Virus record (IMG/VR): IMGVR_UViG_3300022777_000060
From: a virus
DNA: 22,370 bases
Direction: 5' to 3' (one strand)
The translations under genes and the position numbers were made by a program. How positions within the stretch are numbered: the first letter of the stretch is position 1; every line of letters begins with the position of its first letter. The notes below the pieces were generated by a model. That model saw only the letters and a list, made by a program, of their open reading frames with translations, did no database searches and was not told the DNA's origin. Below, in pieces: positions 2,366 to 18,850 of the stretch.

Positions 2366-2406
2366 CCTACACACTTCAAAATCCAGACCATGATGATGTT
2401 TCTTGA
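2365..2406 (+). pseudogene. stranded former 3' end of gene 1143-1556, TYTLQNPDHDDVS*
   Basis: Begins at the last base of the HEG stop codon; ACC TAC ACA CTT CAA AAT CCA GAC CAT ... TGA; overlaps the start of gene 2390. Confidence 0.8.
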
Positions 2407-2617
2407 GATCGGAACACTTGCTGTCGCGATTCTTCTGGTCGTGATATCGGCAGTCTACCTGTTTTACGATCCTATGAGTCCGAAACCGCACGGGATTCTC
2501 GCTATTGCCGCGATTTTCCTCTTCGTGAACAAGTTGCTTTTGGGAATGCCTTTGGTATCTCTCATTGACGTCGGCCTCTTCATCTGGAACGCTCACATAT
2601 TCCTGAAAAGACGATGA
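2390..2617 (+). CDS. small 3-TM membrane protein
   Basis: 75 aa, hydrophobic, ATGA-coupled to the next gene. Confidence 0.75.
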   Translation: MMMFLEIGTLAVAILLVVISAVYLFYDPMSPKPHGILAIAAIFLFVNKLLLGMPLVSLIDVGLFIWNAHIFLKRR

Positions 2618-4044: not shown

Positions 4045-4236
4045 ATGAACACAGACAGCAAGTACGCGATCTGGACCGGAAACGGAGGATACTTCGCTGG
4101 CGTTTTTGGCGGGGGCGCTGACTTTCGTGACGACCCGATGATGGCGGTGAAGTACGACACTGAACACGAAGCGGAAGAGGCCGCCGACAAGATTGGACTC
4201 GATCCCGAAGAGTTTGAAATCCGTCAAGTCCGATGA
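4045..4236 (+). CDS. hypothetical acidic protein
   Basis: A-rich start context at 4045 (alternative 4006); ATGA-coupled to the next gene. Confidence 0.65.
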   Translation: MNTDSKYAIWTGNGGYFAGVFGGGADFRDDPMMAVKYDTEHEAEEAADKIGLDPEEFEIRQVR

Positions 4237-6543: not shown

Positions 6544-7076
6544 TGCTTCGATACGTCATGACGCTTGCCGTTGGAGCGCTGATTGGGATTGGGTTCCAAC
6601 AGTACACACAGCCGAAAACCGTTGCGGTGTTCGACAAAGAAACGAAGTATGAACGTGCGGCAGAGTGGATTGCTCGTGCGCTGTACTCCGAATCGAAGCT
6701 TCTGTCGAACTACGAGTACATCGCGTGGACGATCCGAAACCGCATGACTTCCGGTGATTATCCGGCTACAGCAAAGCAAGTTGTACTCCAAGAGGATCAG
6801 TTCAGCGCCTTCAACGACCCCAATAAGGTTGATGAACTGACGGCGATGACCTATCCGGAGACGAAGAGCACATATTTCCGAAGGGCATACCGAATCGCCT
6901 TGTACGTGCTCAACTCTGACCGATCTGTGAACCCTATGCCCGGAGTCACGCACTTTTACATGGAAGATACGATGGAAGAAGTCCACGGCGTTGAGAAGCC
7001 TCATTGGGCACGTGGGCGGGAACCTTACTTCTCGAACGGCCAAACTAACTACTTCAAAAACGTTCAGGCACCATGA
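6543..7076 (+). CDS. SleB-like cell wall hydrolase (Hydrolase_2 family) with N-terminal signal anchor
   Basis: IARALYSES (catalytic Glu), IAWTIRNR, YPAT..QVV.Q..QFS, THFY, PHWA motifs. Confidence 0.85.
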   Translation: MLRYVMTLAVGALIGIGFQQYTQPKTVAVFDKETKYERAAEWIARALYSESKLLSNYEYIAWTIRNRMTSGDYPATAKQVVLQEDQFSAFNDPNKVDELTAMTYPETKSTYFRRAYRIALYVLNSDRSVNPMPGVTHFYMEDTMEEVHGVEKPHWARGREPYFSNGQTNYFKNVQAP

Positions 7077-7309
7077 AACAAGGAAACGTTTGGGACAACC
7101 GAATGACTGGATACCAAGTCGACGAGTTCAAGTTGACTTTTGACGGCCGAGACTGGACTGTTCGCCGGATCACGTATCACGACACCGGCGACGTCGAGTA
7201 CAAGCGGCGCAACATCAATCAGTTTCATACTCGGTTTGAAGAGCCGCCAGAAGAATGGAAAGACGCGATTGACCGTGTGATTGACGAAGACAAGCCCTTC
7301 AAGGTATGA
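7073..7309 (+). CDS. hypothetical protein
   Basis: ATGA overlaps at both ends. Confidence 0.7.
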   Translation: MKQGNVWDNRMTGYQVDEFKLTFDGRDWTVRRITYHDTGDVEYKRRNINQFHTRFEEPPEEWKDAIDRVIDEDKPFKV

Positions 7310-7587
7310 TTACAGCAAGAGCCACATTTGAGTCACCGGGTGGCCATTTCACCATTCAAAAAGCGATTGCCGCGCCCGAGACGTTCGGAGAAATGATCCA
7401 CCTATTTTTCCGGAAAGGATACACGATCGGAAATCACGAACAAGAAGATCACTGGTATCCCGTGTTCGATCGGGAAGTCTCGGCTACGTATTCGCCAGAG
7501 CTTCGAGAACGAATCGCGAAGCAAAAGTATTGGGAATCAGAACTCCATCCAGTAACATTCAACGGGTATCCATATGAAAACGACTGA
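7306..7587 (+). CDS. hypothetical protein
   Basis: Coupled start; fits the operon. Confidence 0.7.
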   Translation: MITARATFESPGGHFTIQKAIAAPETFGEMIHLFFRKGYTIGNHEQEDHWYPVFDREVSATYSPELRERIAKQKYWESELHPVTFNGYPYEND

Positions 7588-7893
7588 CTTCACAGGGCTG
7601 ATTATTCCAACGGTTTCAATGATTTTGGCGAGCCTTACCTTTTCCGGAATCATGTGGTCGGGATATATTCTCGGCGTCCTTGGGCTGTTTGCGATTTCGA
7701 TAAGTGCTGCAGTTCCAATGATGATGACATCGGCTGATCAATTGAACTTCGCGTTCGGAATCGTTGAGCTTGCTATAAACGGATATTAACTGCCGGAATG
7801 CTTATATTTTCCGGCTGGTTTCTTCCTGCTTTGTTTTATTCGGTTTCGGTTATGATTGACGCCGCACTTTTTTTGGTAGCAAACAATGATTGA
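7574..7893 (+). pseudogene. multi-TM membrane protein gene split by a 1-nt frameshift near 7783 (or sequencing error)
   Basis: Frame 1 stops at 7789; the -1 frame continues ILTAGMLIFSGWFLPALFYSVSVMIDAALFLVANND* to 7893, overlapping the next start. Confidence 0.6.
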
Positions 7894-8137
7894 TAAAGGT
7901 AAATTAGTATGTTTGGGTAGGGTTATTAGTGGGGGGAATTCATATCCAGTTGTGATTGGGAAAGTAGTGCTTTCACATGAAGAATGGGTGGTTGTGGAGA
8001 CAACTTACCCAAAAAACTTCAACAAAACTTCTTGTGGAAAGAAAGTTGATGGCTTGATTGTCGACAATTATGAAAGCTGTATTAAATTTCAACAGTTGGA
8101 GTCTTTATTGATGACGCACGAAAAACGATACAAATGA
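7886..8137 (+). CDS. hypothetical protein, AT-rich; last + strand gene
   Basis: 83 aa ORF in operon position. Confidence 0.6.
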   Translation: MIDKGKLVCLGRVISGGNSYPVVIGKVVLSHEEWVVVETTYPKNFNKTSCGKKVDGLIVDNYESCIKFQQLESLLMTHEKRYK

Positions 8138-8149
8138 GAAAGCTTTCTC

Positions 8150-8184
8150 CGCTTGGGAAAGGATCAAGCATCCTGGTTGCCGAT
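8150..8184 (-). pseudogene. stranded former 3' end and trailer of the major capsid gene (IGNQD)
   Basis: Minus strand ATC GGC AAC CAG GAT GCTTGA..CCTTTCCCAA GCG versus capsid end ATT GGA AAT CAA GAC (CGG GTA TAA) GCTTGA..CCCTTCCCAA AAGCG. Confidence 0.7.
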
Positions 8185-8220
8185 AAATTAAACTATTTCA
8201 CTATACGTCATTCCGAAACA

Positions 8221-10056
8221 TCAATTGACTTTCCATACCATTTCTTTCGAAGCATTTCCAAAGTGGCTTTGGCTTTTTGCCAATGGCCACTTTTTCTTTT
8301 TGTTGGTGATCATATCTTCGCGAACTTTCAAAAACAGATTTTCAAAACGAGAAAGTCCGGTCAAGAAGTCGTTCCAATTTGAAAGATCGTGGCCATTCGA
8401 ATAGATCTCTGTATTTGGATAAGGTGGAGAAGTAAATGTCATGTCCGGATCTGGAAGAGACTTCGGTGAAATTGATTGTTGTTTGTCATTGATTACTTGA
8501 AATTCTCCTGGAAGCTCTTTTCCCAATGATTCAAGTTCCTTACATGTTTCTGGATTTTGTTCGATGCCAATATATATTCCATTTGGATAAAGGCTTTTAA
8601 ATCCAAGAAGACGAGATCCAAATCCCGCACATGGATCAATGACGGTTGGATTGTTTGTTTCCAGAAAGAAGTCATAAATGGAAGCAGCAACAAGAGGTTT
8701 CAGAAAACTAACAACATACCTCATTGACGCCATTCCTCTTCGAATGGATTTCATTGAAATGTCAAACACTTCTCCACGTTCATTGAGTCCAATTCGGTCT
8801 CGAATCACTTTTCTCAATTTCAAACGATCATTCCAACATTCAACTGGACTGTCAGAGTTGGTGAATGACGTTTTCCAAAAGCTTTCAAACCTTGATTTCA
8901 GCAGCGAATTTCCGACTGACCAAATGTTATTTCGAAATCCTGTTTTCGTTCGAGTTCGAGACAAATCATAATTCCGAATTTCATCGACCACCTCGTTCAA
9001 ATTTCTCTTTGAAGATGGCATCGGAAAATCATCAATTACATCTTGACAAAAAGTTGTAATTGATCCAGAAATGTCTCGAAGCTTTTGATCATCAGATACT
9101 TGATTTAGATAATTCGAAGAGATAATGACATCTGAATCTGACCACTCATATGAAGCATCATAAGCAAATTTCGGAATGTCATTTATAGACTGAATACTGT
9201 CGATACTGTGCGGCCGAATTCGAAATAAAGGATCGATTGCTTGATCTTTTTTGTAATCGTTTATGACTCCACGAAGACGTTTATTGTTAAGTTTTGTTTT
9301 ATCATCTGGGTGCCAGTATTCTCCATCCACTTCAACATACCATTGTTTGTCCGGAAAGTAGAAGTCGACAATTCCGGCTTTCGTTTCATGTTGTTTTTCG
9401 CAATCAAATTTTGAATAGAACTCTTTTTCAGGTTTTGTCTCTTTTGTTTGTGGAGACCCTCTGGAAATGGCCTTTTTTTTCATTTCTTTTTTTGATCTCT
9501 GATCATGGTGTCGGCCATACATTGGGTTGTTTTTTCCTTTTGTATTATGACCATTTACATAATCTCGAAAATACGGATGATTATGTACAAAAGAAGTTTT
9601 TTCTCCACAGCCGCATTCGCATTTTGGATGATTGCCGTTATGAATATACTTGACGGCGTATTTCTCTTTTGATGAAATCTTGTGATCTTTTTTTAGATGA
9701 TATGTTAGTTTTTTTTCACTAGCCAGTTTTTCGTTGCAAATTCGGCATTCAACGTCGTCATATTTTTGTTCGCGAAGTTTCTTTTTCCGAAACTCAGAAT
9801 GATTTTCAACATACTCATCAACTGTCAATCCATGACTGTGTTTGAGATGAGTCGCCATTCCAACTGAAGAATACGTGTTTTCACAAATCTCACATTCTAC
9901 ATTTGAGGTTTTCCTTTCTCCTTTTGACGAACGATCTTTTCGAAATTCACCAAATTGACTTACATATTTTTCTATGGAGATTTCATGACTGTGTTTGATG
10001 TGATTTGGAAATCCTTGTGGAGAAAATTCGTCATCGCACATTTCACATTCAATCAT
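8221..10056 (-). CDS. fusion: 3x C2H2-like Zn fingers + NUMOD3-like + Vsr/DUF559-like PD-(D/E)XK nuclease + amino-DNA methyltransferase
   Basis: CxxC..HxKxxH x3; PKCECGCG..NGHN..NNPMYG; TKPE..VDFY..VEVDGEYWH..KD; IDPCAGFG (motif I) and TSPPY (motif IV). Confidence 0.85.
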   Translation of the reverse strand: MIECEMCDDEFSPQGFPNHIKHSHEISIEKYVSQFGEFRKDRSSKGERKTSNVECEICENTYSSVGMATHLKHSHGLTVDEYVENHSEFRKKKLREQKYDDVECRICNEKLASEKKLTYHLKKDHKISSKEKYAVKYIHNGNHPKCECGCGEKTSFVHNHPYFRDYVNGHNTKGKNNPMYGRHHDQRSKKEMKKKAISRGSPQTKETKPEKEFYSKFDCEKQHETKAGIVDFYFPDKQWYVEVDGEYWHPDDKTKLNNKRLRGVINDYKKDQAIDPLFRIRPHSIDSIQSINDIPKFAYDASYEWSDSDVIISSNYLNQVSDDQKLRDISGSITTFCQDVIDDFPMPSSKRNLNEVVDEIRNYDLSRTRTKTGFRNNIWSVGNSLLKSRFESFWKTSFTNSDSPVECWNDRLKLRKVIRDRIGLNERGEVFDISMKSIRRGMASMRYVVSFLKPLVAASIYDFFLETNNPTVIDPCAGFGSRLLGFKSLYPNGIYIGIEQNPETCKELESLGKELPGEFQVINDKQQSISPKSLPDPDMTFTSPPYPNTEIYSNGHDLSNWNDFLTGLSRFENLFLKVREDMITNKKKKWPLAKSQSHFGNASKEMVWKVN

Positions 10057-10068
10057 TATACTTTTTGG

Positions 10069-10076
10069 TTATATAT
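10069..10076 (-). promoter_or_regulatory. ATATATAA putative late-promoter box
   Basis: 12 nt upstream of the ATG and downstream of the capsid terminator. Confidence 0.55.
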
Positions 10077-10115
10077 GAGATATGCCAAGTGGATTATTGA
10101 ACCAGAATGTGAAAT

Positions 10116-10152
10116 AAAAAAAAAGCGTCTCGGTGAATACCGAGACGCTTTT
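10116..10152 (-). terminator. intrinsic terminator of the capsid operon
   Basis: Perfect 14-bp inverted repeat 10121-10134/10139-10152 with a U9 tail on the minus strand. Confidence 0.9.
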
Positions 10153-10178
10153 GGGAAGGGTTCGCTTAGTTTTCAAGC

Positions 10179-11948
10179 TTATACCCGGTCTTGATTTCCA
10201 ATAATTACGAGCCCGTAGAACTCTGGCCTGACGATCCGCTTCGCGTAGCGCGTCATGACTCCACGTCGTGGCGTGAAGTTGTTTGGATCATACACAATAG
10301 GAGTCATCATGAGTGGCACGTAAGGTGCGTACACTGCGCCGGTTTCAAGGAAGTTCTCACCTCGGAATCCGACGAGCATGATGTCCTCAAGCATGTAAGG
10401 GTTCTTGTAAACCTGGAAACGGTTGTAGAGCGTACCAACTCGCTGAACGCCCATAGCGAAGTTGAACTCGTCACCGCCCGTGTCTACGCGATATCCTTCA
10501 ATGCTCTCAAGGATTGTAGCAACGTCAGGGGAGCAGACGATGAAGTTCGCTCCACCACGCATTGTCTTCTGGTGGATTCGGTTGCTTACACGCTGGATCT
10601 TGTTTCCAAGGGTCTCGAACCACTCACTCTTCGTTCCCGTGTGAGTGCCAAGATCCTCAAAGTTTCCAGTGTTCGGGTTGTACTCGTATCCAGGAAGTGC
10701 GCTCCAGTACTCCTTGGTAAGCGCGTTCTGAATGAGCATGTCAAGGATCTCAAGGTCAATCTCCATGCTGATGTACTCACTGAGCATCGATGTCAGCTCA
10801 GCCTCAGCGTCAATGGAGTGATAAGCGTTGAGGTCCTGTGCAAGCTCCGGAGTCCAGACTGCCTTGAGCTTACGGGTCTTCGCAACAATCGGCTGCTGCT
10901 CAAGATCGAAGTCGATCTCTGGAATGTCCAGAATCTCGTAGGTCTCGTTCTGGAGACTGTCAGGTCCGTGCGTGCTTCCGCCAGCGACGTTAGGGTTAGG
11001 AGATTGATCCTCAAAATCACCCCTGTCGAAGTCTTGTGGCTGCTGGTGCCAGATTACCGTCACTTCGGAAGGTGGGGTATCAATCGTGTTTGGAATAGTA
11101 GTTCCATCCGGAGTAGTACTTCCACTGTCACCAGATGTGATGCTACTATCAAACTCAACGACGAACTCGACTTCGCTCACGTCAGATCCCGGCCCTTGAT
11201 TACGTGGGTTCGGGTTCGATCCGTTGTTGTGGATCGTGTGGCGTGGGAAGAACTGAACGATGTCGTCGTGCTCGACAACAAACGCTCGAATACCTTCGAA
11301 GTCTGCCGTGTCATTCACGTTGACCGTAAGGAATCCGAGATTTGCGAGTCGCTGCTGGGTGCTTCCGTCACCGATTTGAAGAAGGTTCTCGTCACCCTCA
11401 AGCCGTTCCAAAAGGAACTCGCCAGCTGGAAGCTGACTTGCAAGTGTTGCATTCACAACGCTTGCGGAGTTGTCGGTGCGGTCGTTGATGGAGTATCCGA
11501 AGCGTCCTTCACCGTAAAGACCGCCCTCTGGCTCGTCCTCGACGGAAGTATCTCCATGAACGAAGTCACCAGAGTTGAACTGGGACTGGCTCGTTCCGTA
11601 CTTGAAGTCAAGGTAGAAGATAAGGCCGGACGGAAGGTTCATCGGCTGGACGGAAACAAACTCCTTCGCTACGATTTCACCGAAAATACGGCGAACGAGC
11701 GGAAGGGCGACTCCAGACCATTCCTCAGATCCCTCTGCGGTTCCGGTTCGAGTTGCCTCTTGAATAAGTTGGTTGTACTGGTTCTCAAGCAGGATAGACA
11801 CGCCGTGAACCTCGTGGTCATCCTCAAGGCCGTCAAGCAGCCCGGTCGGTGCCCATTTGTTCACAAGCTCGCGACTCTGTTCGAGAAGAGCCTTCTGAGG
11901 GGAGCTACCCTGCGAGAACTTGGAAAGATCAAGTTGAGTATTACTCAT
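10179..11948 (-). CDS. major capsid protein, T4 gp23-like
   Basis: LPLVRR, VSVQPMNLPSGLIFYL, AKTRKLKAVWTPELAQDLNAYHSIDAEAEL, YAPYVPL, PRRGVMTRY motifs. Confidence 0.97.
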   Translation of the reverse strand: MSNTQLDLSKFSQGSSPQKALLEQSRELVNKWAPTGLLDGLEDDHEVHGVSILLENQYNQLIQEATRTGTAEGSEEWSGVALPLVRRIFGEIVAKEFVSVQPMNLPSGLIFYLDFKYGTSQSQFNSGDFVHGDTSVEDEPEGGLYGEGRFGYSINDRTDNSASVVNATLASQLPAGEFLLERLEGDENLLQIGDGSTQQRLANLGFLTVNVNDTADFEGIRAFVVEHDDIVQFFPRHTIHNNGSNPNPRNQGPGSDVSEVEFVVEFDSSITSGDSGSTTPDGTTIPNTIDTPPSEVTVIWHQQPQDFDRGDFEDQSPNPNVAGGSTHGPDSLQNETYEILDIPEIDFDLEQQPIVAKTRKLKAVWTPELAQDLNAYHSIDAEAELTSMLSEYISMEIDLEILDMLIQNALTKEYWSALPGYEYNPNTGNFEDLGTHTGTKSEWFETLGNKIQRVSNRIHQKTMRGGANFIVCSPDVATILESIEGYRVDTGGDEFNFAMGVQRVGTLYNRFQVYKNPYMLEDIMLVGFRGENFLETGAVYAPYVPLMMTPIVYDPNNFTPRRGVMTRYAKRIVRPEFYGLVIIGNQDRV

Positions 11949-13764: not shown

Positions 13765-13865
13765 GTTTTGTTAACTTATCTTTCATACACTTCAACCGAC
13801 CTATCACGCCATGCTGTCAAACTGCCTCGTGATAGGCTTTCATCGGTCATTTAGGGCACACTCTG

Positions 13866-14195
13866 TCACTTCATAATCTCAAGAAGTCGGCCGAAAAGTC
13901 CTGCAGGATCCGGCAACTTTGATGTTTCTTCAATCTTTCGGCCGTTGCTGTTAAGGTAGTGAACTTCCCCGCCCTGCATGACTCTGGCGGTAGCGGCTGC
14001 ACTTCCATTCCTTCGCGCTTCAACCTTCAACGCGTATCCGTAGTCTCCCATGTAGTTTTTCTCAATGAAAATGGTCGCGTTTGGAAGATACGGAAAGTCA
14101 TAAACGCCACTTCCGTTTGAGCCGCCAAGGTACTGCTCAAGATCTCTCTTGTAGTTTTCTAGTGCCGATTCCAGCAGGATCTGTTTGAACTTCAT
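13866..14195 (-). CDS. hypothetical head-module protein (MKFKQILLE N-terminus)
   Basis: TAATG coupling with the upstream gene. Confidence 0.75.
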   Translation of the reverse strand: MKFKQILLESALENYKRDLEQYLGGSNGSGVYDFPYLPNATIFIEKNYMGDYGYALKVEARRNGSAAATARVMQGGEVHYLNSNGRKIEETSKLPDPAGLFGRLLEIMK

Positions 14196-14887
14196 TATCG
14201 GTAAGCGGTTTGCCCGCCGGTTGCTCTTTCAACGAGTGCGTCAACAACTTGCTGTGGGCCGGTGTAACGTACTTTATCTCGTTTTGGCCTGCCGCCTTTG
14301 ATAGCAGAAGGCTCTTGAAAAACAACTTGCCCGCCTTCAATCTTCGCGCTTACAACGCTTTCACTGTCATTTCTATTTCGAAACACATTGACGAAGACGG
14401 CCATACCGCCCATCGGGTCAATGTGGAAGTGTAGTCCTTCGTATTCATAAGTGTCCATTCCAGTAGAAAGTCCGTTGTTCGCCAAATAGCGGTGAATGTC
14501 TTGCCCCGCCTTTGGCATTGATCCTTCCGTCGCTGGATCCACTGCTGCAGCGCCACCGGCTTCGTGAAGAATGGTCCGAATAGCTTTCCGAACCTCTGTA
14601 ATCTTCAAAAAGTCGGCGATCTTATCAGCGGCTCGATCTTTACTCACAGTTTCTTCTTTACTGCCAACGGAAACCTGGACGTTGCCGTGGCTCATTTCGC
14701 GAACATAAGCCCTCTGTCCGGTTCCAAACTCAATGTATTGGAGGTTCATATCCTCTTTCCCCCAGTCTGTGATTCGAAGACCGTGCTTCATCTTCAGCTT
14801 CTTTCGGATCCGCTGAAAGGTGGCAGGGTGGACCTCATTGAGTTCTTCCCGAATGATTTGTCGCAGCTTTTGCTCTGTTAGTTTCAT
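14195..14887 (-). CDS. putative internal head protein with MKLTE tag (two modules)
   Basis: MKLTEQKLRQIIREELNE; internal KITEVRKAIRTILHE. Confidence 0.75.
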   Translation of the reverse strand: MKLTEQKLRQIIREELNEVHPATFQRIRKKLKMKHGLRITDWGKEDMNLQYIEFGTGQRAYVREMSHGNVQVSVGSKEETVSKDRAADKIADFLKITEVRKAIRTILHEAGGAAAVDPATEGSMPKAGQDIHRYLANNGLSTGMDTYEYEGLHFHIDPMGGMAVFVNVFRNRNDSESVVSAKIEGGQVVFQEPSAIKGGRPKRDKVRYTGPQQVVDALVERATGGQTAYR

Positions 14888-14897
14888 CGTAGTTTGG

Positions 14898-15254
14898 TTA
14901 TGGCCATATTTTGTGAAAAGTGACGCTTTCGGTTGGCGTCATTGACTCTCGTGGATTATCAAAACTGCCCCAAATCTCTCCTGCGCTCGTCACGTCACCT
15001 CCCCTTGGATGCTTTTTGAAGAAGATCGCCTGAAAGTTGTTCATGTACCTATCGTTCACATCCGTTTGGCGCACGATTTTGTCTGTCATCGTGTCCCAAA
15101 GCTGGCCACCTCGCTTGCGGGTCATGTATGATCCTTCGTCTCCGAACTTATCTTTGAGGCGGCCGAAGTTCATGCGATCCTCTCCACGTGCTTCGGAAAG
15201 CCGTTCAATCTCTTCTCGAATAATAGTGCGAAGGTTGCTTTCGGTAAGTTTCAT
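14898..15254 (-). CDS. putative internal head protein with MKLTE tag
   Basis: MKLTESNLRTIIREEIERLSE. Confidence 0.75.
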   Translation of the reverse strand: MKLTESNLRTIIREEIERLSEARGEDRMNFGRLKDKFGDEGSYMTRKRGGQLWDTMTDKIVRQTDVNDRYMNNFQAIFFKKHPRGGDVTSAGEIWGSFDNPRESMTPTESVTFHKIWP

Positions 15255-15257
15255 GTG

Positions 15258-15848
15258 TTATCGTTTGCGTTTTTCACCAGTCACTTCCCAGTTGTTTGCT
15301 TTCAGCCACCGGGAAGCCTTGGCGAGTGATTCAAAGGACTTGTCGTACTTCATCGTGCTGAAGATATAGTCGTTGCCATAGGTGTAAAACTCTCCGCGTC
15401 CGACCTTCGGTGGAGCATCGGGGCTTGAAAGCGTAAGAGCCGTTTGCTCGACTCTATCGACCTTACCAAGCTGCCTCTCAGTCGGCTCTCCAAGCTCGGT
15501 GAGTTTTTGGATCTCTTGCTCTACGATTCTTCGGAGCTTGCTTTCAGTAAGCTTCTCTGTGCCTGAAGCCATTTTGGATTCATCCTTTCCTCGCCAATCG
15601 GTGGTGCCCAAATACTCGTCTTTCAGAGAAGCGCAAAACGCTTCGGGGTCGTCGAACTTATCTTCAACCTCGTCCATGCAGGCACTGAAAAAGCCTTCTT
15701 CACCTTCCTGCCCCGTAAGGTTTTGGGCGAAGCTCTCGACGGAGTCTTCATCCCAACCGTCCGGCAAGTTGTCCCAACCGATATCGTCTTCACGAAGAAC
15801 CTCTTCGTGGATTATCTTCCGAAGCCTGCAAGGCGTGAGTTTTTGCAT
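15258..15848 (-). CDS. putative internal head protein with two tag copies
   Basis: MQKLTPCRLRKIIHEEVLRE and internal KLTESKLRRIVEQEIQKLTE. Confidence 0.75.
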   Translation of the reverse strand: MQKLTPCRLRKIIHEEVLREDDIGWDNLPDGWDEDSVESFAQNLTGQEGEEGFFSACMDEVEDKFDDPEAFCASLKDEYLGTTDWRGKDESKMASGTEKLTESKLRRIVEQEIQKLTELGEPTERQLGKVDRVEQTALTLSSPDAPPKVGRGEFYTYGNDYIFSTMKYDKSFESLAKASRWLKANNWEVTGEKRKR

Positions 15849-15849
15849 A

Positions 15850-16005
15850 TCACTGTATCTTTATAGTCGTGTACTCGTCGGTTTGCTCTTCAATCTGAAC
15901 CTTCACCTTCTTCTCGGGAAGGAACTCACCGTCAATGAAGAGCATGTCGTGTCCGTTGAAGTTCCAGCTTGTACCATCGAAGACTTCAGGCTCTTCCTCA
16001 CCTAC
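15850..16005 (-). CDS. -1 frame C-terminal extension of the S8 protease (51 aa)
   Basis: After the A12 run: VGEEEPEVFDGTSWNFNGHDMLFIDGEFLPEKKVKVQIEEQTDEYTTIKIQ*, ending 1 nt before the next ATG. Confidence 0.7.
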   Translation of the reverse strand, partial: VGEEEPEVFDGTSWNFNGHDMLFIDGEFLPEKKVKVQIEEQTDEYTTIKIQ

Positions 16006-16895
16006 TTTTTTTTTTTTGAGACAGCATCTTCAAGAAGCAAGATTCCGGCTCCGTCTTTTTTCACGCCGGGAATGTCATTTGCGGTGTCCATGAACCGCTG
16101 ATCCCAACTCTGTCGCTTCGACTGAAGAGCGTTCGCGTAAGCTGCAGCAACGTAAGGTGCGGCAAAACTGGTTCCTGAAGCCTTGATGAAGTCGCTGTCA
16201 AGAACAGTTCCCATCGAAGCCTCTGTCGACTTAGCCATCTTCACGTCTTTTCCGACTGCCGCAACATCCGGGTTGCCTTTCTCCGGATCGAAGCTAGAGA
16301 ACCGAGTTGGAGCTTCGCTTTCATCAATAGCTCCTGCACTGAACGCGTTTTTCGCTGTCGCTGGACTCCCGCCGTCCCCGCCAGTGTTTCCAGCAGCAAC
16401 CACGTCTGCTACGCCCATATCCATAAGGCCGTCGTGAAGCCGGTTGATTTGTGGAATGTCACGCCGGGCTCCCCAGCTCATATTCACGATATCGATTTCG
16501 TTTCCGTGATCCAAGAGCCATTGGTATGCCCTTTCGATTGCTGGAAACCCTCCAGTGCCGTTATCTCCAAAGATCCGGACGCTGTATAGCTCCACGTTCT
16601 CAACGTTTTTCGCTACAATCGAGCCGACACCTGTTCCGTGTCCCACGACGTCGACGCCTTCGTTTCCACTGCGAGTTGCGTCGTACCTCTTGGTTACGTC
16701 AACGCCTTCGAACCACGGGTGATTTTGCTCTGCAGCATCATCGATGCCAGAGTCCATGATAGCGACGGTAATCTTCTCGCCTCTGGTCTGTTGGGGCCGA
16801 ATCTCGTGAATGCGCCGCGCTTCTTCTGGCGTAATCACTGACCCGTGGCTGGAAGTGGTAACTGCTTCATCAATGCGAATCTCAAACTCTTTCAT
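16002..16895 (-). CDS. subtilisin-like S8 serine protease
   Basis: VAIMDSGID, GHGTGVG, VNMSWG, AAGN, SGTSFAAP catalytic motifs; no signal peptide visible. Confidence 0.93.
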   Translation of the reverse strand: MKEFEIRIDEAVTTSSHGSVITPEEARRIHEIRPQQTRGEKITVAIMDSGIDDAAEQNHPWFEGVDVTKRYDATRSGNEGVDVVGHGTGVGSIVAKNVENVELYSVRIFGDNGTGGFPAIERAYQWLLDHGNEIDIVNMSWGARRDIPQINRLHDGLMDMGVADVVAAGNTGGDGGSPATAKNAFSAGAIDESEAPTRFSSFDPEKGNPDVAAVGKDVKMAKSTEASMGTVLDSDFIKASGTSFAAPYVAAAYANALQSKRQSWDQRFMDTANDIPGVKKDGAGILLLEDAVSKKKK

Positions 16896-16914
16896 AATGG
16901 TTGGTTACTTTTGT

Positions 16915-17247
16915 TTATGGTTGTGCCATGAACTCGGCGTCAATCTTTTCTGCGTTTCCACGTTGGATTTGCCTCTTTACCCATTCGTCATCGATTTCGC
17001 CGCGAACAGGTCGGCCGCTGGAAAATCCAAGAATGCGTTCGACGCTAATCCGGTCGCCTCTTCTCACAATGTCAACAGCAAGCGGTTCTCGCTCTCCGTG
17101 TCGTGAGTTCGGGTTTGGCAGCTTGTATACCTCTCCACGCCCTTCAGCCGATCGGCGGCCGCCAACTCCGGTTCGTGCGGGTGCTTCCGCGAGCTTTGAC
17201 AACTCTTCTCGAATAATGGATCGTAGTTTCGTTTCGGTAAGTTTCAT
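16915..17247 (-). CDS. putative internal head protein with MKLTE tag
   Basis: MKLTETKLRSIIREELSKLAE. Confidence 0.75.
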   Translation of the reverse strand: MKLTETKLRSIIREELSKLAEAPARTGVGGRRSAEGRGEVYKLPNPNSRHGEREPLAVDIVRRGDRISVERILGFSSGRPVRGEIDDEWVKRQIQRGNAEKIDAEFMAQP

Positions 17248-17261
17248 CGTTTGTTGTTGAT

Positions 17262-17645
17262 TTACAGTGCAGAGACTCTTGTGGAACGTTCAATGACGAC
17301 TCGAACTTTGTCGGCGTCGGCATTCACGTCCAGTTGTGCGCGTACGTATTTTCCAAGCAACGGGATTTCAACAGGACTGACCGATTCTTGAGCGTCAGCG
17401 GATTTCGTGTCACTAATGTCCACCTCTCGGGTGCTTTCCGTCGGCCCGTCAATCGTTTGCTCAATCGTGAGAGTCGCGCTTACTGAACTTCCAGCAGTCT
17501 GCGCGATTACATATCCAGTGACAGAGCTGTGCCCCGCCGCTGGTTTCCAGTTGGACTCGAAAGTCTTGCCGCTTGATACATTCTCACGGTTTAGCTCCAT
17601 AAGGGAGTCTCGCGGCAAAAATGAGTCGACGCTTGAGGTAGGCAT
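17262..17645 (-). CDS. hypothetical beta-rich protein, possibly virion-associated
   Basis: Ser/Thr/Val-rich alternating pattern; position in the head module. Confidence 0.6.
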   Translation of the reverse strand: MPTSSVDSFLPRDSLMELNRENVSSGKTFESNWKPAAGHSSVTGYVIAQTAGSSVSATLTIEQTIDGPTESTREVDISDTKSADAQESVSPVEIPLLGKYVRAQLDVNADADKVRVVIERSTRVSAL

Positions 17646-17739
17646 ATTCTATTCAATAAAGTTTAGTCGTTCAAGATTTTTCTTTGCGAGAAAACGCAAC
17701 CATTTTGTTGATTCTTATCGTGGAATTACTTCCTTCATA

Positions 17740-18846
17740 TCAGTTCAGATACTTTTTTGGGATTCCAAGTTTTCGTCCAACCTTCACAAACTGCTTGTTG
17801 TGTGTCGGGTTATTCGCCTGTGCAAGCACAAAGTGAATGAGTTCATGCTTGATCACTGACTTTAAGTATTCAACGTCTTTCGAAAATGCCTGCGGGTGAA
17901 CGTCAATGATTCCGTAGTCGGTGATATCGGTTTTGTTTGTGTTGTGCCCGACCTTGCCCGGAGGAAGATTTATGCTTGAAACTCCAAATGACACGTAGGG
18001 AATGTTCTTGACTTCATTTCCCGTCACGTCTTTGTAAGCTCTGACAACATCCGGAAGAAACTTGTGCGCAACTTTGGTTATGACAGCAGACTTCTTCTTT
18101 CGTTTCTTGAGATTTTGAATAACGTCAGAGTAATCGTAGCCGTCTGTTTGAAGTATTTCAGCAACTCGAATCGTCCATCCGAGAGTTCTTTGCCAGTGAT
18201 CGGGACTACCATACGTCCGATCAAACTTTGAAAAATCAAGGTCGCGAGTTGAGTAGATGGTCGTGTTGAGTGTCCAAACGTCGTCGTGAAGAATCGAATG
18301 GCAGTTGATGGCAACTGGAGCATTCATCTCTGGAACCACGAGCCGCCAATCCTTTCCGTCCATATCTTCACGGGTTGACGTGTCGTATTTGTACCATCCT
18401 GCGCTCTCTATGCCAAGCTCTTCGGCCACTTTCGCAAGCTCATAATGAAAAAGCTCGATGCCGTCCCAACTCGGCCCGTAATAGTCGTGTTGAGTTTGCC
18501 AGTGAGTGAGAACGTCCCGAATCTGTTGCGCCTTCGCAGAGTCTGCGTGAATATCTTCTACGTAGTGTTTCATCACGTAGAAGTCTTTCTTCGGAGCATA
18601 GATCGTGTTTTCCGTTCCCTTAATCTTTGCCCTGTACCCGATGATCTGATTGAACTTCGTGTAAACGCCAGTAATCTTGACCATCTTCCCCCGCTTATCA
18701 GCGAGCACTTCATTGGCGTTTTCGTTTATCTGAGCTTCCTTGCCGACGTGTGAGTGATCGGTTCGAAGGTCTCGCTGGATATCAACTTCAAGTGGAAAGT
18801 TCCAGTCACCGATCTCTCTATTTTGTAGATACTCAGATATTTTCAT
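17740..18846 (-). CDS. multidomain protein with C-terminal SprT-like zinc metalloprotease
   Basis: VIKHELIH...THNKQF...LG (HExxH plus third His). Confidence 0.7.
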   Translation of the reverse strand: MKISEYLQNREIGDWNFPLEVDIQRDLRTDHSHVGKEAQINENANEVLADKRGKMVKITGVYTKFNQIIGYRAKIKGTENTIYAPKKDFYVMKHYVEDIHADSAKAQQIRDVLTHWQTQHDYYGPSWDGIELFHYELAKVAEELGIESAGWYKYDTSTREDMDGKDWRLVVPEMNAPVAINCHSILHDDVWTLNTTIYSTRDLDFSKFDRTYGSPDHWQRTLGWTIRVAEILQTDGYDYSDVIQNLKKRKKKSAVITKVAHKFLPDVVRAYKDVTGNEVKNIPYVSFGVSSINLPPGKVGHNTNKTDITDYGIIDVHPQAFSKDVEYLKSVIKHELIHFVLAQANNPTHNKQFVKVGRKLGIPKKYLN

Positions 18847-18850
18847 ATTG

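What the first reader, a model, noticed from the sequence alone, without database searches (positions are those of the whole stretch)
8150..10210. Second 3'-end-replacement cassette, at the major capsid gene
Seen: the capsid gene ends ATT GGA AAT CAA GAC CGG GTA TAA GCTTGA...CCCTTCCCAA. On the far side of the 611-aa nuclease-MTase gene (minus strand 8184-8150) lies ATC GGC AAC CAG GAT GCTTGA T CCTTTCCCAA: the same IGNQD peptide with all five third positions changed, plus the same trailer fragments. The stranded copy mostly uses C/G-ending codons like the capsid body, while the current tail (GTA ATT ATT GGA AAT CAA) is A/T-ending like the inserted gene. Inference: the capsid C-terminus and its terminator were imported with the element. 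Two unrelated nuclease families using the same strategy within 9 kb suggests a general and probably under-recognised class of non-splicing gene-tail-replacing elements in these phages.
Basis: partly seen in the sequence, partly recalled or inferred. Interest (0 to 1): 0.85.

Follow-up and report, generated by a model that had tools for sequence, protein, structure and literature searches.

The report
Capsid-tail stub behind a homing nuclease
A selfish nuclease gene sits just after the head-protein gene of an uncultured T4-like phage, followed by a short leftover copy of that gene's last codons, probably a scar of the insertion; this is a phage version of a trick known from yeast.

Summary
The sequence is as described. 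The gp23-type capsid gene (11948-10179, minus strand) ends IGNQDRV*. It is followed by a strong terminator and an AT-rich 611-aa gene (zinc fingers, NUMOD3, Vsr/I-Bth0305I-like nuclease, methyltransferase-like end). Thirty-six bases after that gene lies ATC GGC AAC CAG GAT GCTTGA T CCTTTCCCAA (8184-8153).

The peptide echo has p about 0.005 by score and 3e-4 as an exact 5-mer. The collinear trailer echo adds p about 0.01-0.03. Nucleotide alignment alone is not significant, and the codon-bias argument is weak.

New context: about 38 homologues of this gene in IMG/VR all sit 54-226 nt after a gp23-like gene. Phages with 92-97% identical capsids carry homologues only 36-56% identical. The closest relative with DNA (L003) has none. 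This is a capsid-flank-specific homing family.

Two other phage types show clear duplications around such genes: L071 (last five codons, stop and terminator) and L208/L209 (56-nt perfect terminator repeat). Most loci show none.

The best reading is a relic of a displaced capsid 3' end, as in yeast WHO elements (confidence 0.6). Which copy was imported is unproven, because DNA of the 97-99% capsid relatives could not be fetched. The scan had already confirmed the sister case in this genome (e1-5595033).

The parts
10179..11948 (-). Major capsid protein gene, T4 gp23 type, 589 aa, ending EFYGLVIIGNQDRV*
   Evidence: Pfam Gp23 E 3.5e-81. It is 63% identical overall to the LR756508 capsid. Relatives 97-99% identical end in the same peptide.
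10179..10208 (-). Live capsid tail GTA ATT ATT GGA AAT CAA GAC CGG GTA TAA. This is the stretch proposed to have come in with the element.
   Evidence: GC3 drops from 0.9 to 0.2 at 10210. The nine codons fit the 611-aa gene's codon usage 183 times better than the capsid body's. The weight is weak, because 4 of 20 other genes have equally AT3-rich tails.
10121..10178 (-). Trailer A: GCTTGA small hairpin, CCTTCCCAA, then a strong intrinsic terminator (14-bp stem at 10152-10121, followed by a T run)
   Evidence: Terminator scan; fold of -26.3 kcal/mol.
10057..10120 (-). AT-rich (26% GC) leader of the nuclease gene
   Evidence: No promoter was established.
8221..10056 (-). 611-aa free-standing homing-endonuclease-type gene: three C2H2/BED zinc fingers, Cys cluster plus NUMOD3, Vsr/I-Bth0305I-like nuclease, and a C-terminal methyltransferase-like domain (DPCAGFG, TSPPY)
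   Evidence: Pfam hits (Vsr in 18 of 24 family members, NUMOD3 in 10). The family profile matches PDB 3r3p 'mobile intron protein' at E 1.7e-6. GC is 37% against 51% for the backbone.
8185..8220 (-). 36-nt AT-rich spacer (28% GC) between the nuclease stop codon and the stub. The similarity to the live tail may start at TAATT(T)AT, 8190-8183.
8164..8184 (-). Stub ATC GGC AAC CAG GAT GCT TGA, reading IGNQD then the trailer hexamer. It lacks the nine bases CGG GTA TAA of the live copy.
8136..8163 (-). Trailer B: T, CCTTTCCCAA, GCG, then a short palindrome GAGAAAGCTTTCTC. It has the same two-hairpin layout as trailer A but a weak second hairpin.
   Evidence: Together with the stub it is 51% GC, higher than any 49-nt window inside the nuclease gene.
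7886..8137 (+). Convergent 83-aa gene with no homologues, AT-rich (36% GC). Its stop codon lies in the trailer B palindrome. It is probably a separate acquisition flanking the relic.

Best explanation
The 611-aa gene is a free-standing homing endonuclease gene. It belongs to a family whose home is the 3' flank of the gp23-type capsid gene of T4-like phages.

Inferred mechanism: in a mixed infection the nuclease cut an element-free capsid allele near codons 579-582. The break was repaired from the donor genome. On the left, repair used capsid homology. It copied the donor's last capsid codons, stop codon, trailer, terminator and nuclease gene. On the right, repair rejoined at or near the broken end.

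The recipient's own last codons and trailer were therefore pushed behind the nuclease gene. They no longer serve any function and have decayed: a 9-nt loss of Arg-Val-stop, a 13-nt trailer indel and a weak hairpin.

The live tail encodes the same peptide through different codons, which would also make the resident allele a poor substrate.

Shown: the insertion, its nuclease family, its site specificity and turnover, the relic, and equivalent duplications in other phages. Inferred: the cleavage site, the direction of import, and resistance of the resident allele.
For: - The stub and trailer echo sit 36 nt after the nuclease stop codon, on the same strand and in the same order as in the live copy. 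Joint p is about 1e-4.
- The relic is a 51% GC islet of backbone composition between AT-rich blocks.
- All five differences in IGNQD are synonymous. This is expected for two alleles that diverged while both were coding.
- L003, the closest relative with DNA, has capsid, terminator, then convergent genes, with no nuclease gene. Its tail uses ATC GCC AAC, with C-ending codons as in the stub.
- Family survey: about 38 IMG/VR homologues all start 54-226 nt after a gp23-like stop codon.
- Capsids 92-97% identical carry homologues only 36-56% identical, which means repeated independent invasions.
- L071 has a 70-nt duplication (last 5 codons, stop, trailer and terminator, one synonymous change) bracketing a related zinc-finger/nuclease gene.
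- L209 has a 56/56-nt terminator repeat bracketing a family member.
- The GIY-YIG cassette in the same window leaves a 14-residue stub, TYTLQNPDHDDVS* echoing TYTLQNPEHPEVD*.
- The WHO model describes exactly this outcome (PMC7282813).
Against: - The match is short. Nucleotide-only statistics are marginal.
- By BLOSUM score over 300 nt, 3 of 39 loci reach p < 0.03, against about 1 expected.
- Exact 5-mer echoes within 6.5 kb downstream occur at about the chance rate across 205 capsid loci. Only the position and the trailer make this one special.
- The stub lacks the final Arg-Val-stop.
- The live tail peptide is the clade's normal one, and its AT3-rich codons are not unusual for gene ends here.
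- AT-rich DNA continues beyond the stub (7700-8137), so the right edge of the imported DNA is uncertain.
- No insert-free DNA within the 97-99% capsid clade was available.
Confidence: 0.6

Rival explanations
1. The stub is a true duplicate, but this phage's own tail was not displaced in this phage. One option is that the whole AT-rich block 7700-10210 (live tail, terminator, nuclease gene, stub and the 83-aa gene) was imported together from a donor that already carried the stub. In that case the stub would be a downstream homology arm, as in WHO donors. The other option is that recombination between repeated terminator cassettes made the duplication.
For: - Low GC runs from about 7700 to 10210 on both sides of the stub.
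- The 83-aa gene has no homologue except a fragment of itself.
- In the WHO model the donor already holds a downstream fragment.
- L209 shows a perfect terminator repeat without any coding tail.
- Several other capsid loci repeat their terminator 0.5-0.8 kb downstream.
Against: - The stub islet has backbone-like GC and C/G-ending codons like the capsid body and like L003.
- The two trailers are too diverged for a recent in-place duplication.
Confidence: 0.2
2. The match is chance. The nuclease gene simply inserted downstream of the capsid terminator, as in most family members, and the capsid tail is native and untouched.
For: - Only five residues match.
- Nucleotide-only p is 0.02-0.06.
- About 36 of 39 family loci have no stub.
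- 5-mer echoes occur at the chance rate across loci.
- The live tail fits the family rule of ten residues after EFYG ending in V, I or L, and matches close relatives.
- AT3-rich gene ends are common here.
Against: - The joint peptide and trailer p is about 1e-4, at the one place the hypothesis predicts.
- The stub sits in a GC islet.
- Clear precedents exist in L071, L209 and the neighbouring GIY-YIG cassette.
Confidence: 0.15

Closest known systems
WHO elements of Torulaspora and Lachancea yeasts (PMC7282813; bioRxiv 10.64898/2026.08.13.744650)
   Same: - The nuclease gene lies just downstream of an essential host gene.
- The element unit includes a replacement 3' end of that gene.
- The old 3' end is pushed behind the nuclease gene and decays.
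- Divergent family members repeatedly invade one locus, and tandem clusters form (LR756508 carries two nuclease genes after its capsid gene).
   Different: - The nuclease here is Vsr/I-Bth0305I-like with C2H2 fingers, not intein-derived LAGLIDADG.
- The host is a lytic phage.
- The relic is about 21-50 nt, not about 400 bp.
- Most family loci show no relic.
- Cleavage and resistance are untested here.
Free-standing homing endonuclease genes of T4 (seg and mob genes), in particular segD between genes 23 and 24 (PMC2988022)
   Same: - It is an intergenic nuclease gene immediately after the major capsid gene, with terminators on both sides.
- segD is antisense, as is the L071 gene.
- Spread would be by cutting a neighbouring gene and co-converting the flanks.
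   Different: - segD is GIY-YIG and its target is unknown.
- No duplicated capsid tail is reported for T4 in that review.
- This family carries an extra methyltransferase-like domain.
I-Bth0305I (PDB 3r3p), the Vsr-like (EDxHD) homing endonuclease of a Bacillus phage intron
   Same: The nuclease domain is homologous by profile (E 1.7e-6). Pfam Vsr matches 18 of 24 family members.
   Different: I-Bth0305I is intron-encoded. This gene is free-standing, with zinc fingers and NUMOD3 in front and a methyltransferase-like domain behind.
Mitochondrial endonuclease ORFs that bring a substitute gene end (Allomyces atp6, Ophiostoma rps3). This comparison is recalled from memory and was not checked here.
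   Same: An in-frame replacement C-terminus arrives with the endonuclease gene, and the displaced original end remains downstream.
   Different: These are organelle genomes with LAGLIDADG or GIY-YIG enzymes. In those cases the endonuclease is often fused in frame to the host gene.

Membership tests
Free-standing homing endonuclease gene (phage type) | Encodes a nuclease domain of a recognised homing-endonuclease family, together with DNA-binding modules | tested here: met
   The family profile matches 3r3p (I-Bth0305I) at E 1.7e-6. Pfam Vsr matches 18 of 24 members and NUMOD3 matches 10 of 24; zinc fingers are present.
Free-standing homing endonuclease gene (phage type) | Sporadic presence at one conserved genomic site among related genomes | tested here: met
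   About 38 loci all have the gene 54-226 nt after a gp23-like gene. It is absent in L003. Only 1 of 80 capsid loci in the first IMG/VR set carries one (L018 = L218). Capsids 92-97% identical carry nuclease genes 36-56% identical.
Free-standing homing endonuclease gene (phage type) | The enzyme cuts element-free alleles, and the resident allele is resistant | not testable with these tools
   This needs protein and substrates.
Free-standing homing endonuclease gene (phage type) | Preferential inheritance with co-conversion of flanks in mixed infection | not testable with these tools
   The phage is uncultured. Identity profiles between capsid pairs with different nuclease genes showed no sharp 3' drop, which is uninformative at about 80% nucleotide identity.
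WHO-like 3'-end-replacing homing element (by mechanism) | A duplicated fragment of the host gene's 3' end lies downstream of the nuclease gene | tested here: met
   The stub and trailer at 8184-8136 have a joint p of about 1e-4. The fragment is short and decayed. Clear equivalents exist in L071 and in the GIY-YIG cassette.
WHO-like 3'-end-replacing homing element (by mechanism) | Allele identity falls sharply 3' of the cut site between element-bearing and element-free alleles | tested here: inconclusive
   The blastn alignment to L003 ends at 10201 and the GC3 shift is at 10210.
WHO family proper | Intein-derived LAGLIDADG nuclease fused to a zinc finger domain, related to HO and VDE | tested here: not met
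   The nuclease is Vsr/I-Bth0305I-like. The element works like a WHO element but is not a member of that family.
Class I SAM-dependent DNA methyltransferase (C-terminal domain) | Motif I (FxGxG-like) and motif IV ((D/N/S)PP(Y/F)-like) | tested here: inconclusive
   D474, P475, G478 and F479 of DPCAGFG, and T542, S543 and P545 of TSxPY, are invariant in 24 sequences; C476 and Y546 are conserved in at least 90%. Only 4 of 24 members give weak Pfam Methyltransf_25 hits. No fold was computed.

The most novel reading that the evidence does not exclude
T4-like phages host a hitherto undescribed family of single-chain zinc-finger / Vsr-type nuclease / methyltransferase homing elements that is dedicated to the 3' end of the major capsid gene. 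It spreads WHO-style, bringing its own capsid tail and terminator. The fused methyltransferase would give methylation-based self-immunity at the target, making it a homing element with built-in restriction-modification logic.
Probability: 0.2. Interest if true: 0.75.

Novelty: new variant of a known kind. Interest (0 to 1): 0.55.

Why it matters
If this reading holds, homing endonucleases in phages do more than sit between genes. They can overwrite the end of an essential structural gene and its terminator, which makes the capsid 3' end a recombination boundary and a source of mosaicism.

The survey also defines a large nuclease family tied to one conserved target, the gp23 3' flank. The family turns over rapidly and carries an unexplained methyltransferase-like domain. 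That gives a concrete enzyme-and-target pair to test.

It would also explain why the g23/g24 junction of T4 holds segD.

The principle itself is already published for yeast WHO elements, and another follow-up confirmed it for the GIY-YIG cassette of this same genome. The gain here is breadth and a new family, not a new principle.

Tried and rejected
- The single metagenome scan and the genome scans returned only distant T4-like capsids.
- A degenerate pattern for the IGNQD(R/Q)V* tail found nothing in IMG/VR or in genomes.
- No whole genome is held for this window.
- Nucleotide-only local alignment of the capsid tail region against the post-gene region was not significant. blastn-short also missed it.
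- The codon-usage likelihood ratio of 183 looked strong. I discounted it after finding equally AT3-rich tails in 4 of 20 other genes.
- A search for stubs behind 38 other family members was negative apart from chance-level scores.
- No stub was found in LR756508 between or after its two nuclease genes.
- The L210 echo was judged low-complexity chance.
- Identity gradients along capsid genes of pairs with different nuclease genes gave no co-conversion signal.
- The flanking small genes (7073-8137) have no homologues in any fetched locus.
- Contig-length matching suggests an 8120-nt contig holds a 99% capsid and a homologue of the 7073-7309 gene but no nuclease gene. This is indirect evidence.
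- No structure prediction or complex prediction was run.
Full report
**What is there**

On the minus strand the window holds a gp23-type major capsid gene at 11948-10179 (589 aa, Pfam Gp23 E 3.5e-81). It ends EFYGLVIIGNQDRV*. After the stop codon come GCTTGA, CCTTCCCAA and a 14-bp-stem terminator with a T run. Next is a 26% GC leader, then a 611-aa ORF at 10056-8221.

Thirty-six bases after that ORF lies ATC GGC AAC CAG GAT GCTTGA T CCTTTCCCAA GCG, followed by the palindrome GAGAAAGCTTTCTC (8184-8136). The stop codon of a convergent 83-aa gene (7886-8137, plus strand) lies inside that palindrome.

**Is it more than chance?**

- An exact 5-residue echo of the last 15 capsid residues in the 131 nt behind the ORF occurred in 20 of 60000 dinucleotide shuffles. 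It is the only other tail 5-mer in all six frames of the window.
- Scored with ungapped BLOSUM62, p is 0.005.
- Given that anchor, the collinear trailer match (GCTTGA directly after the peptide, then CCTT(T)CCCAA) has p 0.002-0.03 under four scoring schemes.
- The joint value is about 1e-4, perhaps 1e-3 after allowing for free choices.
- Nucleotide-only alignment is marginal (p 0.02-0.06).
- Across 205 capsid loci, 5-mer echoes somewhere in 6.5 kb downstream occur at about the chance rate. What counts here is the position and the trailer.
- The stub plus trailer B is 51% GC, like the backbone. No 49-nt window inside the 37% GC nuclease gene is as high, and it lies between 28% and 36% GC flanks.
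The live tail has GC3 0.22 and fits the nuclease gene's codon usage far better than the capsid's. However, 4 of 20 other genes end just as AT3-rich.

**What the inserted gene is**

- The ORF has three C2H2/BED fingers, a Cys cluster with NUMOD3 and a Vsr-like nuclease. Its C-terminal region carries DPCAGFG and TSxPY motifs whose core positions are invariant or at least 90% conserved.
- A profile of 24 homologues matches PDB 3r3p, the catalytic domain deposited as 'mobile intron protein', at E 1.7e-6. From memory, this is homing endonuclease I-Bth0305I.
- Its best homologue anywhere is 51% identical.

**Context from relatives**

- L003, the closest relative with DNA (capsid C-terminal part 93% identical), has capsid, terminator and convergent genes, with no nuclease gene. 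Its tail is GTT ATC GCC AAC..., with C-ending codons as in the stub.
- Capsids 97-99% identical exist in the protein collection, and all end (V/I)IGNQDRV. The peptide is therefore clade-native.
- None of their contigs appears among the contigs of nuclease homologues.
- An 8120-nt contig seems to hold a 99% capsid and a homologue of the 7073-7309 gene but no nuclease gene. This evidence is indirect.
- The huge phage LR756508 has two nuclease genes in tandem after its capsid gene. The second is 44% identical to this one.

**The family survey**

- Using the alignment as query, about 38 IMG/VR loci carry a homologue. In every one it starts 54-226 nt after the stop codon of a gp23-like gene, on the same strand. 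Those capsids are only 33-70% identical to the window's capsid.
- Eighteen locus pairs with 89-97% identical capsid C-terminal parts carry homologues only 36-57% identical. The site is therefore invaded again and again by diverged family members.
- This makes the family a site-specific homing family of the capsid 3' flank. In T4 the same junction, between genes 23 and 24, holds the free-standing segD (PMC2988022).

**Do other members leave relics?**

- Mostly not. Behind 38 other members, nothing exceeds chance.
- L071 is a clear exception. Its capsid ends GGA TTA ACC GCC GTG TAA plus trailer and terminator. An antisense 596-aa zinc-finger/nuclease gene follows, and then GGA TTA ACC GCA GTG TAA plus a matching trailer and terminator. 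The repeat is about 70 nt and about 80% identical.
- The L071 gene belongs to a second family. It is homologous to the first LR756508 gene, and its finger and nuclease part is distantly related to the window's gene.
- In L208/L209 a family member is bracketed by a 56/56-nt repeat of the capsid terminator region. That repeat does not reach the coding tail.
- In this window the GIY-YIG gene at 1676-2365 is followed by TYTLQNPDHDDVS*, echoing the upstream gene's TYTLQNPEHPEVD*. This agrees with the earlier follow-up e1-5595033.

**Mechanism**

The pattern fits the model worked out for yeast WHO elements (PMC7282813). In that model the element unit is the nuclease gene plus a resistant replacement 3' end of the host gene. 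Integration pushes the old 3' end behind the nuclease gene, where it decays.

Here the inferred cut lies near capsid codons 579-582. The imported part would run from about 10208 to about 8185. The relic has since lost Arg-Val-stop and part of its trailer.

The insertion, the nuclease family, the site specificity, the turnover and the duplications are shown. The cut site, the direction of import and the resistance of the recoded tail are inferred.

Two rivals remain. In the first, the relic is real but arrived with a larger AT-rich block (7700-10210), or arose by terminator-repeat recombination (0.2). In the second, the match is chance (0.15).

**Novelty**

The principle is known from WHO elements, from mitochondrial cases that I recall but did not check, and from the sister cassette in this genome. 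Two things appear to be new. One is a large capsid-flank-specific zinc-finger / Vsr-type nuclease / methyltransferase-like family. The other is evidence that such phage elements sometimes overwrite the capsid tail or its terminator.

The decisive test is the DNA of the element-free 97-99% capsid relatives.

Noticed in passing
L071:6835-6905 and L071:8687-8755: There is an unambiguous direct repeat of about 70 nt. It covers the last five capsid codons, the stop codon, the trailer and the terminator. It brackets an antisense 596-aa zinc-finger/nuclease gene (6896-8686), and the coding part differs by one synonymous change.
   Followed up: partly
L209:4898-4953 and 6953-7008 (same in L208): A perfect 56-nt repeat of the capsid terminator region brackets a 648-aa family member. 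Shorter 17-nt copies recur at 8408 and 8479, after the next gene.
   Followed up: partly
L001:4937-8688 (LR756508): Two different zinc-finger/nuclease genes (570 aa and 644 aa) lie in tandem directly after the capsid gene of a 484-kb phage. This resembles a WHO-style cluster, but no relic was seen.
   Followed up: partly
L066, L113, L129, L132, L133 (capsid trailers): The capsid terminator segment (30-34 nt, 91-100% identical) is repeated 0.5-0.8 kb downstream. This suggests small gene cassettes bounded by repeated terminators.
   Followed up: no
L178:3937-4734 and L190: The capsid reading frame hits a stop codon at 4077, yet the tblastn match continues to 4734. This could be a recoded stop codon or a sequence error in these contigs.
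   Followed up: no
window 13800-18850: About 5 kb of the head module has no counterpart between the flanking syntenic genes of L003. This suggests further insertions or replacements.
   Followed up: no
window 7886-8137 (+): This AT-rich 83-aa gene has no homologue among 5.8 billion clustered proteins except a fragment of itself on a 4131-nt contig. It abuts the relic from the other side.
   Followed up: partly
L130:2396 and L130:4058: Two gp23-like gene ends with the identical tail PEFYGKVIVADVNYV* lie 1.6 kb apart. This is a tandem capsid duplication or an assembly repeat.
   Followed up: no
window 2366-2420: The stub behind the GIY-YIG gene reads TYTLQNPDHDDVS*, against the upstream gene's tail TYTLQNPEHPEVD*. 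It is much longer and clearer than the capsid stub.
   Followed up: partly
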